64,000 nucleotides of DNA from Octopus sinensis (lineage: Eukaryota), in the NCBI RefSeq assembly GCF_006345805.1, contig NC_043003.1:16988001-17052000 (forward strand). Direction: 5' to 3'. Under the pieces are notes generated by a model that saw only the letters and a list, made by a program, of their open reading frames with translations, did not search any database and was not told where the DNA came from. The translations under genes and the position numbers were made by a program. This document shows, piece after piece, positions 52,621-55,009 of the stretch (positions are counted from its first letter, which is position 1; each line of letters begins with the position of its first letter).

Positions 52621-53072
52621 TATCTATCTATCTATCTATCTATCTATCTATCTATCTATCTATCTATCTATCTATCTATTATCTATCTATCTATCTGCCT
52701 GTCTGTCTGTATGTCTGTCTGCCTGTCTGTCTGTTGGTCTGTCTGTCTATCTATCTATCTATCTATCTATCTATCTATCTATCTATCTATCTATCTATCT
52801 AAATAATAAGGGAGATATATTGAATATTAATTTAATTAATATCAATTTAAAACCAGTAGCCTAGCATATAGAAAAATCTGAAAAAATCAGAGAAAATTCT
52901 AATACATGTGTATATTTAAAGGGCTAAACACCACTATGTGGTCAGCCATATGCTAGAAGTAGATCATCTACGATCAAACTACAAAGAAAAGAATCTTCTC
53001 TAGAGAAAAATTCAGCGGACACCAGAACAATATGCGGGCAAGACATGAAAATTATATAAAAAAACAAGATTT

Positions 53073-53140
53073 AATCACAGACCGGCGGTTTCGCCTATTA
53101 ACGAATGAATCCCTCGCCCGTAGTGCTCGTCAGTACGATC
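53073..53140 (-). ncRNA. Type-I hammerhead ribozyme
   Basis: Minus strand GATCGTA-CTGACGA-GC(A)CTA...TAGGC-GAA-ACC gcc GGT-C-TGTGATT. Core complete with GUC triplet. Stem I is 7 bp including G.U pairs. Confidence 0.75.
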
Positions 53141-53979
53141 TGTACACAAGTAATATAATTTGTAAAACTAACCACCAGTTTTCCGTATAAAAACAGACAC
53201 GTACTTAGTTTCACCGATTACATTGGAGTTAATTTCAAATGTCTGAGTTCTGGCGCGCTAAAAATTCCGGAAACAAAATCCACAGTAAATAATTTACTGC
53301 AGTTAATGCTGCCTATTAGAGAACATATTTATTTTAACATTTAAATAATGAGGGAGATAAATTGAATTTTAATTTAATTAATATCAATTTAAAACCAGTA
53401 GCCTAGCATACAAAAATCTGAACAATCAGAGAAATACATTCTAATACATGTGTATATTTAAAGTGCTGAAAAACCACTATGTGGTCAGCCATATGCTAGA
53501 AGTAGATCATCTGCGATCAAATTACAAAGAAAAGAATGTTCTCTAGAGAAAAATTCTATCTATCTATCTATTATCTATCTATCTATCTATCTGTCTATCT
53601 ATCTATCTGTCTGTCTGTCTGTCTGTCTGTCTGTCTGTCTGTCTATCTATCTATCTATCTATCTATCTATCTATCTATCTATCTATCTATCTATCTATCT
53701 ATCTATCTAAATAATAAGGAGATATATTGAATATTAATTTAATTAATATCAATTTAAAACCAGTAGCCTAGCATATAGAAAAATCTGAAAAAATCAGAGA
53801 AAATTCTAATACATGTGTATATTTAAAGGGCTAAACACCACTATGTGGTCAGCCATATGCTAGAAGTAGATCATCTACGATCAAACTACAAAGAAAAGAA
53901 TCTTCTCTAGAGAAAAATTCAGCGGACACCAGAACAATATGCGGGCAAGACATGAAAATTATATAAAAAAACAAGATTT

Positions 53980-54047
53980 AATCACAGACCGGCGGTTTCG
54001 CCTATTAACGAATGAATCCCTCGCCCGTAGTGCTCGTCAGTACGATC
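53980..54047 (-). ncRNA. Type-I hammerhead ribozyme (duplicate of 53073-53140)
   Basis: Identical sequence. Confidence 0.75.
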
Positions 54048-55009
54048 TGTACACAAGTAATATAATTTGTAAAACTAACCACCAGTTTTCCGTATAAAAA
54101 CAGACACGTACTTAGTTTCACCGATTACATTGGAGTTAATTTCAAATGTCTGAGTTCTGGCGCGCTAAAAATTCCGGAAACAAAATCCACAGTAAATAAT
54201 TTACTGCAGTTAATGCTGCCTATTAGAGAACATATTTATTTTAACATTTAAATAATGAGGGAGATAAATTGAATTTTAATTTAATTAATATCAATTTAAA
54301 ACCAGTAGCCTAGCATACAAAAATCTGAACAATCAGAGAAATACATTCTAATACATGTGTATATTTAAAGTGCTGAAAAACCACTATGTGGTCAGCCATA
54401 TGCTAGAAGTAGATCATCTGCGATCAAATTACAAAGAAAAGAATGTTCTCTAGAGAAAAATTCTATCTATCTATCTATCTATCTATCTATCTATCTATCT
54501 ATCTATATATATATATAAAACACAGCGGTTCGGCAAAAGACCGACAGAATAAGTACTAACAAAGAATAAGTCCTGGGGTCGATTTGTTCGACTAAAGGCG
54601 TTGTTCCCACATGACCATAGTCAAATGACTGAAACGAGTAAAAGAATAAAAGAATATATATATATATATTTACTCTGTCGTGGATTGCAACCCTCTTTAT
54701 AGACAGTTTTAACCAAAATGCCTTTGCTAATATTTCAGTATATGTAATTATTTGTCGCATGCACAAATATTTAAAGCTTCATTTTACTTTGTACCGACTC
54801 GTCTTCCCTTGCCTCACCGAATTTACCCTAGTGCATGCGCATTCATATTTACGTGCATGCGCATTCATGTTTACATGCATGCATACATATATATATATAA
54901 TTCATTCATGCACGCGCGCAACACACATACGAACGCTCAAACATCGATGTTGCTGTAAACTACTTGAAATTTCGAGGAAGTAGGACACGTCTAATTTATC
55001 GTGTGTGCA

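What the first reader, a model, noticed from the sequence alone, without database searches (positions are those of the whole stretch)
52801..54463. Retrozyme-like unit: ~1.4 turns of a 542-nt non-coding monomer with one intact hammerhead
Seen: an A-B-A' layout (A ~213 bp, period ~542) with no ORF and a complete type-I hammerhead on the minus strand (53073-53140). It is bounded by (TATC)n and duplicated almost perfectly at +907. Known: non-LTR retrozymes are tandem hammerhead repeats that yield circular RNAs, and PLEs also form partial tandem pLTRs. Inference: a copy of a circular or multimeric RNA. The duplicated state would release a ~907-nt ribozyme-to-ribozyme RNA. A and A' differ at several sites, so they may come from two templates.
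Basis: partly seen in the sequence, partly recalled or inferred. Interest (0 to 1): 0.7.

Follow-up and report, generated by a model that had tools for sequence, protein, structure and literature searches.

The report
Decayed Penelope-mobilised hammerhead retrozyme copy
This is an old, partly decayed copy of a common non-coding jumping repeat that carries a predicted self-cutting RNA and was likely pasted in by a Penelope-type retrotransposon enzyme; its 907-base doubling looks like a later local duplication or an assembly error, not part of how the element works.

Summary
Observation confirmed: a 542-bp ORF-less monomer plus a 214-bp second lap, a type I hammerhead on the minus strand, (TATC)n flanks, and a second copy differing by one indel. 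It is a dispersed family (2,893 first-look candidates) with one ~12-unit array. Copies are not random circular permutations: 53 of 66 outer 3' ends fall at two sites ~110 nt apart, away from the cleavage site, mostly beside microsatellites; 5' ends scatter; 14 of 52 insertions are two-armed and none repeats a site. That is the published Penelope 'tail' pattern. No coding Penelope is attached as parent. The two-template idea is not needed: A/A' differences are minority alleles split 5:5, and both laps share a private base. This copy's ribozyme has an intact core but lost its helix II tip and folds poorly (rank 41 of 46). The doubling resembles other microsatellite-bounded duplications, one on unrelated DNA in this window. 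Verdict: new member of animal non-LTR retrozymes; cleavage and circular RNA untested. The scan has reported this pattern many times elsewhere in this genome.

The parts
52620..52800 (+). Left compound microsatellite (TATC)n/(TGTC)n; insertion target on the element's 3' side
52801..53342 (-). Full 542-bp monomer (first lap copied); 33% GC; 3' end at 52801 is fixed site E1 (q1)
   Evidence: E1 ends in 22 of 66 other 3' ends
52900..52918 (-). Second fixed end site E2 (q100-118), internal in this copy; resembles (TA)/(TG) microsatellite
   Evidence: 31 of 66 3' ends
53073..53140 (-). Type I hammerhead motif, predicted cleavage after 53080; core intact, helix II tip deleted, palindromic short helix III
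53343..53556 (-). A': partial second lap (q1-213); 53556 is the 5' truncation point
53557..53708 (+). Middle compound microsatellite; same layout as the left tract, different in several bases
53709..54463 (-). Second copy of the whole insertion (one indel, no substitution); local duplication or assembly error
53980..54047 (-). Hammerhead motif of the second copy, C17 at 53987
54464..54503 (+). Right (TATC)n tract, followed by (TA)n

Best explanation
This is one decayed copy of a dispersed, protein-free 542-bp repeat with a predicted hammerhead ribozyme, likely inserted when a Penelope-type reverse transcriptase-endonuclease copied its RNA into a microsatellite. Steps: (1, inferred) the minus strand is the RNA; hammerheads, probably acting in pairs through the palindromic helix III, would cut multimers to monomers that would circularise, as shown for other retrozymes. 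(2, inferred from ends) the Penelope enzyme nicks an AT-rich microsatellite and starts inside the RNA at one of two sites, 280 nt (E1) or ~170 nt (E2) downstream of the cleavage site. (3, shown as geometry) here copying began at E1, ran through the unit junction for 1.39 laps and stopped at q213, giving A-B-A'. I favour one circular template copied more than once (about 60:40 over a linear multimer). (4, shown) each lap then gathered 5 substitutions in 210 nt and the ribozyme lost its helix II tip. (5, shown as sequence; cause open) the block [microsatellite + insertion] was doubled much later or by the assembler.
For: Family: 66 matches from 40 scored of 2,893 candidates; 57 exact intact-core pattern matches, 56 of this family, control 0. 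Ends: in 52 other insertions, 53 of 66 outer 3' ends lie at q1-9 (22) or q100-118 (31); in the 33 insertions found by ribozyme pattern or by q430-542 only, 33 of 40; 38 5' ends scatter from q62 to q542; 3 ends lie within 10 nt of the cleavage site. E1 flanks are mostly microsatellite, usually matching 0-7 nt of the upstream monomer. Two-armed insertions: 14; E1+E2 in 5 by strict bins (two more, L017 and L030, by eye), E1+E1 0, E2+E2 0; a sister family at ~70-77% identity shows the same two ends, E1+E2 in 8 loci of 30 by BLAST (selected for an E1 arm). Craig et al. describe 5' truncation, partial tandems, an inverted 5' copy and a 'tail' on one end only as the Penelope pattern; Frangieh et al. 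show two internal RT start sites, AT-rich nicks on both strands and no need for ribozyme cleavage. RT + GIY-YIG ORFs of 883 and 775 aa exist in the genome. Ribozyme structure: 94.5% of 669 cells paired, 3 helix I pairs with double-sided changes, slid controls 26-40%; helix III variants of 6, 8 and 9 nt are all self-complementary (-8 to -11 kcal/mol as duplex, no hairpin alone). Circular monomer folds at z = -5.0 on the ribozyme strand, -3.3 on the other (40 shuffles). One template: all 10 A/A' substitutions have the family majority on one lap (5 each) and both laps share a base found in 0 of 85 other copies; lap-to-lap divergence 223/3638 = 6.1% against a between-locus median of 9.5%; a sister insertion has laps 98.7% identical (L165).
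Against: No partner Penelope family was identified: no pLTR homology in 40 GIY-YIG loci, which are only 30 + 10 of 5,029 candidates. 13 of 66 3' ends and 9 of 14 two-armed cases fall outside the strict bins. The tail is ~110 nt, not the published 30-40. In the C2 array, units differ by a median 10% and non-adjacent units share derived bases, which a single circle plus private decay does not predict. Covariation counts come from related sequences selected for an intact core; only 4 pairs change on both sides, 74 of 500 shuffles reach that. One shared private base is thin support for one template. No cleavage, RNA or circle was observed.
Confidence: 0.8

Rival explanations
1. Same element and enzyme, but the template is a linear read-through transcript of a tandem array or partial tandem, never a circle; the ribozyme is incidental to insertion.
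For: Ribozyme mutants insert normally in vitro and uncleaved RNA is the main substrate for the anole Poseidon element. A ~12-unit array could supply multimers; shared derived bases among its units fit a mixed multimer or later local amplification.
Against: Laps within an insertion are closer than copies between loci (6.1% vs 9.5%; 98.7% identical in L165), the window's laps share a private base, and the hammerhead fold is conserved with compensatory change.
Confidence: 0.35
2. The 907-bp doubling is an assembly error (two reads or haplotypes stitched through the microsatellite) and the genome holds one copy.
For: No substitution in 755 bp but a homopolymer indel, while the left and middle spacers differ at several bases. 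A second perfect microsatellite-bounded doubling lies at 34306-34516 / 35035-35245, and others at L039, L051, L101, L164, L166.
Against: Unequal crossing-over or slippage between (TATC)n tracts gives the same layout; recurrence fits either cause. No long reads were available.
Confidence: 0.45
3. One reading: the doubled state is a working source of a 907-nt ribozyme-to-ribozyme RNA.
For: Two cores with all conserved bases lie 907 nt apart on one strand; the self-complementary helix III could pair between them.
Against: The active fold of this copy lies 11.4 kcal/mol above its minimum-energy fold, rank 41 of 46, family median about 5. The short-loop variant with intact core occurs only here (2 matches), so it has not spread. 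The doubling may not be real.
Confidence: 0.07
4. The repeat is the orphan pseudo-LTR of a coding Penelope element, left by 5' truncation.
For: Fixed 3' ends, 5' truncation and inversions are Penelope features; retrozymes and pLTRs are related in Xenopus.
Against: Upstream of the monomer lies the monomer again, up to ~12 laps. Penelope coding sequence (4 query ORFs) occurs in 1 of 82 family and sister loci, and there beyond the 3' end across a 30-nt microsatellite (L010). Descent from an ancestral pLTR is not excluded.
Confidence: 0.07
5. A and A' come from two different RNA templates (template switch).
For: 10 substitutions plus 7 gap columns in 217; one A' allele (q170) is in 12 of 85 copies.
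Against: The other 9 minority alleles are in 0-6 copies each, split evenly over both laps; both laps share a private base; 4.8% is within the lap-to-lap range of other insertions (0-14%).
Confidence: 0.1

Closest known systems
Animal non-LTR retrozymes (Cervera and de la Pena 2020, PMC7229834; Li, Clavereau and Pollet, bioRxiv 10.64898/2026.07.22.740005)
   Same: Non-coding, low-GC (33%) repeat with a type I hammerhead per unit, dispersed monomers to multimers, no LTR; short palindromic helix III as in the axolotl motifs that cleave better as dimers; co-occurs with Penelope elements.
   Different: 542 nt is above the ~170-400 nt of the 2020 paper but inside the 51-972 bp of the 2026 preprint; helix II is long; the window copy has one hammerhead per insertion. 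In the parts I read, neither paper maps fixed internal 3' ends or two-armed insertions for retrozymes. Circular RNA and cleavage were shown there, not here.
Endonuclease-bearing Penelope-like elements (Craig et al., 10.1101/2021.04.23.441226; Frangieh et al. 2024, PMC11167929)
   Same: 5' truncation, partial tandem, inverted 5' arm, two 3' ends with a tail on one side, AT-rich or microsatellite targets, start sites downstream of the hammerhead.
   Different: No ORF; tail ~110 nt rather than 30-40; the unit closes on itself rather than flanking an ORF.
Plant LTR retrozymes (as described in the introductions of the two retrozyme papers)
   Same: Non-autonomous element with hammerheads.
   Different: Those have type III hammerheads, LTRs, PBS/PPT and 4-bp target duplications; none is seen here.

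Membership tests
Type I hammerhead ribozyme | Conserved core C3-A9, G12-A14, A15.1-U16.1, NUH triplet, open helix I | tested here: met
   core invariant partly by selection of the pattern
Type I hammerhead ribozyme | Three helices supported by comparative evidence | tested here: met
   94.5% paired, compensatory changes in helix I; helix III invariant in that set, palindromic in all variants
Type I hammerhead ribozyme | Match to an Rfam hammerhead model | tested here: not met
   no match; the long helix II is a likely cause (inference)
Type I hammerhead ribozyme | Self-cleavage | not testable with these tools
   predicted weak for this copy; 8 of 9 predicted Xenopus dimers did not cleave
Non-LTR retrozyme | Non-coding, low-GC unit of a few hundred bases, no LTR | tested here: met
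Non-LTR retrozyme | Tandem repeats with a hammerhead in consecutive units (family level) | tested here: met
   L031 array, 12 motifs aligned, 5 with exact intact core
Non-LTR retrozyme | This locus is an 'active' dimer (two consecutive units with working ribozymes) | tested here: inconclusive
   two cores only through the 907-bp doubling, separated by microsatellite; poor predicted fold
Non-LTR retrozyme | Expressed as linear and circular monomer RNA | not testable with these tools
   only contigs were available
Penelope-mobilised element | Two fixed 3' ends (tail), variable 5' truncation, inverted 5' arm, AT-rich target | tested here: met
Penelope-mobilised element | Identified autonomous partner sharing terminal sequence | tested here: inconclusive
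   none among 40 loci of 5,029 GIY-YIG candidates
Autonomous Penelope-like element or its attached pLTR | RT + GIY-YIG ORF joined to the repeat | tested here: not met

The most novel reading that the evidence does not exclude
The family's insertions are a genomic record of a Penelope reverse transcriptase running laps round a ~545-nt circular RNA, started from two fixed internal sites 110 nt apart, one from each nicked DNA strand. This would give direct evidence for the proposed but unshown circular-RNA transposition of animal retrozymes, and a minimal cis-acting RNA for a reconstituted assay.
Probability: 0.45. Interest if true: 0.55.

Novelty: new member of a known kind. Interest (0 to 1): 0.3.

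Why it matters
The class is known, and a July 2026 preprint already argues that animal retrozymes are non-autonomous Penelope derivatives, from co-occurrence and pLTR similarity, mostly in vertebrates. What this family adds is insertion-site evidence for that link: two mapped start sites, a tail on one end, and multi-lap copies. It makes 'circle or linear multimer?' testable with defined RNA coordinates. The window's copy is a poor choice for that test: it is old, its ribozyme is damaged and its doubling is probably incidental. My searches found no paper describing this family or octopus retrozymes; the supplements of PMC7229834 (unreadable) and of the preprint (closed) may list such families.

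Tried and rejected
Rfam: no hammerhead in the window or in L041, L042, L122 at E<=5, only microsatellite noise. Unconstrained fold of the 85-nt motif: z -0.1, not the active fold. First pattern with a 25-40 nt gap found only the window's two copies because the family loop is longer. Sequencing runs: no RNA holder listed; runs guessed to be RNA (X9, X11, X18) have contigs like the family but are not shown to be RNA; no contig covered 53122-53143 at 95% in X2, X3, X4, X7, which proves nothing; contigs cannot bridge the 150-nt microsatellite, so the doubling could not be tested. Partner search: no pLTR homology in 30 GIY-YIG loci or 10 longer Penelope loci; the one hit (L159) is a small two-armed sister-type insertion, not a pLTR; the commonest Neptune-like family ends at (TA)n but no hammerhead was found in its 3' 1.2 kb. 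MAFFT misaligned q68-81 of A (15 differences); pairwise alignment gives 10. A constrained double-hammerhead fold crashed; only helix III duplexes were computed. The end tally was mistyped and is superseded. 5' ends at q540-542 are partly query-edge effects. Rows dropped: 93 family loci were reduced to 52 distinct places; the window's own locus and clusters under 100 bp were left out; part's output was cut. Sequence look-up of earlier findings returned nothing. PMC10886601 and PMC8967140 passages held nothing on this family.

Full report
Observation. The layout is as described. 52801-53556 is repeated at 53709-54463 with one 1-nt deletion and no substitution; within each unit A and A' are 542 apart and 200 of 217 columns agree; no frame exceeds 82 aa. 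A type I hammerhead lies on the minus strand with C17 at 53080 and 53987. Coordinates q below count from 52801 on the plus strand, so the ribozyme-sense RNA runs from high q to low q and the cleavage site is q280.

Family. In the 2.72-Gb own genome the unit has 2,893 first-look candidates, of which 40 were scored; the B part alone has 657. An exact pattern for the intact core finds 57 places, 56 of this family, and 0 for the backwards control. Long copies are 77-91% identical to the window monomer (n = 52 alignments). Contigs like the family were laid from runs under four organism labels (X1, X2, X3, X4, X7). One locus holds about 12 laps (L031). A sister family at about 70-77% has its own hammerhead.

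Ends. Among 52 other insertions, 53 of 66 outer 3' ends fall in two bins, q1-9 (E1, 22) and q100-118 (E2, 31), which cover 5% of the monomer; in the 33 insertions found without the full-unit query it is 33 of 40. The 38 5' ends scatter, and 3 ends lie within 10 nt of the cleavage site. E1 and E2 ends mostly abut (TA)n, (CA)n or (TG)n; E1 ends usually match 0-7 nt of the upstream monomer. Fourteen insertions have an inverted second arm: 5 are E1+E2 by strict bins, 9 have one end outside the bins (two of them E1+E2 by eye), none is E1+E1 or E2+E2. The sister family gives E1+E2 in 8 of 30 loci by BLAST (these loci were chosen for an E1 arm). I had noted the two fixed ends and inversions before looking at earlier findings; the explicit pairing test followed those notes. 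Craig et al. (passages) describe this for Penelope-like elements: 5' truncation, partial tandems, an inverted 5' copy, a 30-40-bp tail on one end. Frangieh et al. (parts 1-2 of 4) show that the tail is the stretch between two internal RT start sites, that both strands of AT-rich DNA are cut and extended, and that ribozyme cleavage is not needed for insertion in vitro. The window copy is the one-armed case: E1 end, 1.39 laps, truncated at q213, in a (TATC)n tract, a rarer target.

Not an attached pLTR. Upstream of q542 comes q1 again. Four Penelope ORF queries hit 1 of 82 family and sister loci, beyond the 3' end across a microsatellite. Thirty GIY-YIG loci and 10 longer Penelope loci show no terminal homology. 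Long RT + GIY-YIG frames exist (883 and 775 aa), so helpers are available, but the partner is not identified and only 40 of 5,029 candidates were seen.

Ribozyme. On 27 aligned motifs 94.5% of 669 cells pair; three helix I pairs change on both sides; slid controls give 26-40%. The set was chosen for an intact core and the sequences are related, so this is support, not proof. Helix III comes in 6-, 8- and 9-nt forms, each self-complementary and none a stable hairpin alone, which fits the dimer-assisted cleavage reported for axolotl motifs (PMC7229834 section 15). The window copy lacks about 12 nt that form the helix II tip in the other 26, has a G-U where most have G-C in helix I, and its active fold lies 11.4 kcal/mol above the minimum, rank 41 of 46. 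This short-loop form with intact core occurs only here. The circularised monomer is more structured than shuffles, more so on the ribozyme strand (z -5.0 vs -3.3).

A versus A'. Ten substitutions; at each, one lap has the family majority base, 5 on each side; both laps share a base absent from 85 other copies. Lap-to-lap divergence over 31 pairs is 6.1% against a between-locus median of 9.5%. One template followed by about 2.4% decay per lap explains this. Against a pure single-circle origin for every array: L031 units differ by a median 10% and share derived bases between non-adjacent units.

The 907-bp doubling. At the lap-to-lap rate about 36 substitutions would be expected in 755 bp; there are none, so the doubling is much younger than the insertion or not real. 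The doubled block includes the microsatellite: the middle spacer has the layout of the left one but differs at several bases. A perfect doubling between (TA)n tracts lies on unrelated DNA at 34306-35245, and others at L039, L051, L101, L164 and L166. Slippage or unequal crossing-over and assembly error fit equally; contigs cannot decide.

Comparison and novelty. It works like, and at family level meets the testable features of, an animal non-LTR retrozyme (PMC7229834: passages and sections 15, 17); expression, cleavage and circles are untested. The Penelope link is proposed there and argued in bioRxiv 10.64898/2026.07.22.740005 (parts 1-3 of 5), which sampled 31 vertebrates, 3 insects and 1 coral. 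Six searches found no description of this family; supplements could not be read. Earlier notes of this scan report the same two-end pattern for several other families in this genome; they are AI notes and not independent evidence. Verdict: a real, ordinary, decayed member of a known kind; interest 0.3. The family-level insertion record is the part worth following.

Noticed in passing
window 33918-35436: Second microsatellite-bounded local doubling (period 729); the 211-nt unique part 34306-34516 equals 35035-35245 exactly.
   Followed up: partly
L094-L123, L165 (e.g. G000:C3:153739028-153742062): Sister retrozyme family, ~520-530 nt, ~70-77% identical, own hammerhead with palindromic helix III, same two fixed ends; 124 exact matches to a short pattern.
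   Followed up: partly
L031 1897-8868 (G000:C2:2545398-2552368): Two-armed insertion, E1 on one end and E2 on the other, with ~12 laps in one arm, a ~295-bp interruption and units sharing derived bases.
   Followed up: partly
window 41679, 47123, 56902 (+): Other minimal hammerhead-like motifs of the kind found in Penelope pLTRs (motif scan; the likeness is recalled).
   Followed up: no
window 37225-37722 (+): 165-aa frame that by eye resembles the zinc-finger and endonuclease end of a Penelope element; no Pfam match at E<=0.01, no tblastn match to four Penelope ORFs.
   Followed up: partly
window 33625-33743 and 62182-62288 (+): 5S rRNA (109 bits) and U6 snRNA (92 bits) matches; gene or pseudogene not tested.
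   Followed up: no
window 59540-60790: 83-bp satellite, 15 copies, 99% matches.
   Followed up: no
window ~52460-52619 and ~54519-54650; 15327-15879; 43683-44208: The insertion sits in the microsatellite between two SINE-like parts; 184-185-bp tandem SINE-like units occur elsewhere in the window. The SINE label and an octopus origin of the genome are recalled or taken from note e1-8806981, not tested.
   Followed up: no
L156 (G000:C8:18815001-18824000): 775-aa RT + GIY-YIG Penelope ORF with an upstream hammerhead that also has a long helix II and palindromic helix III, in inverted copies; no sequence match to this family.
   Followed up: partly
L010 873-1470: Penelope endonuclease fragment 30 bases beyond the E1 end of a family copy, across a microsatellite; read as co-insertion.
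   Followed up: partly
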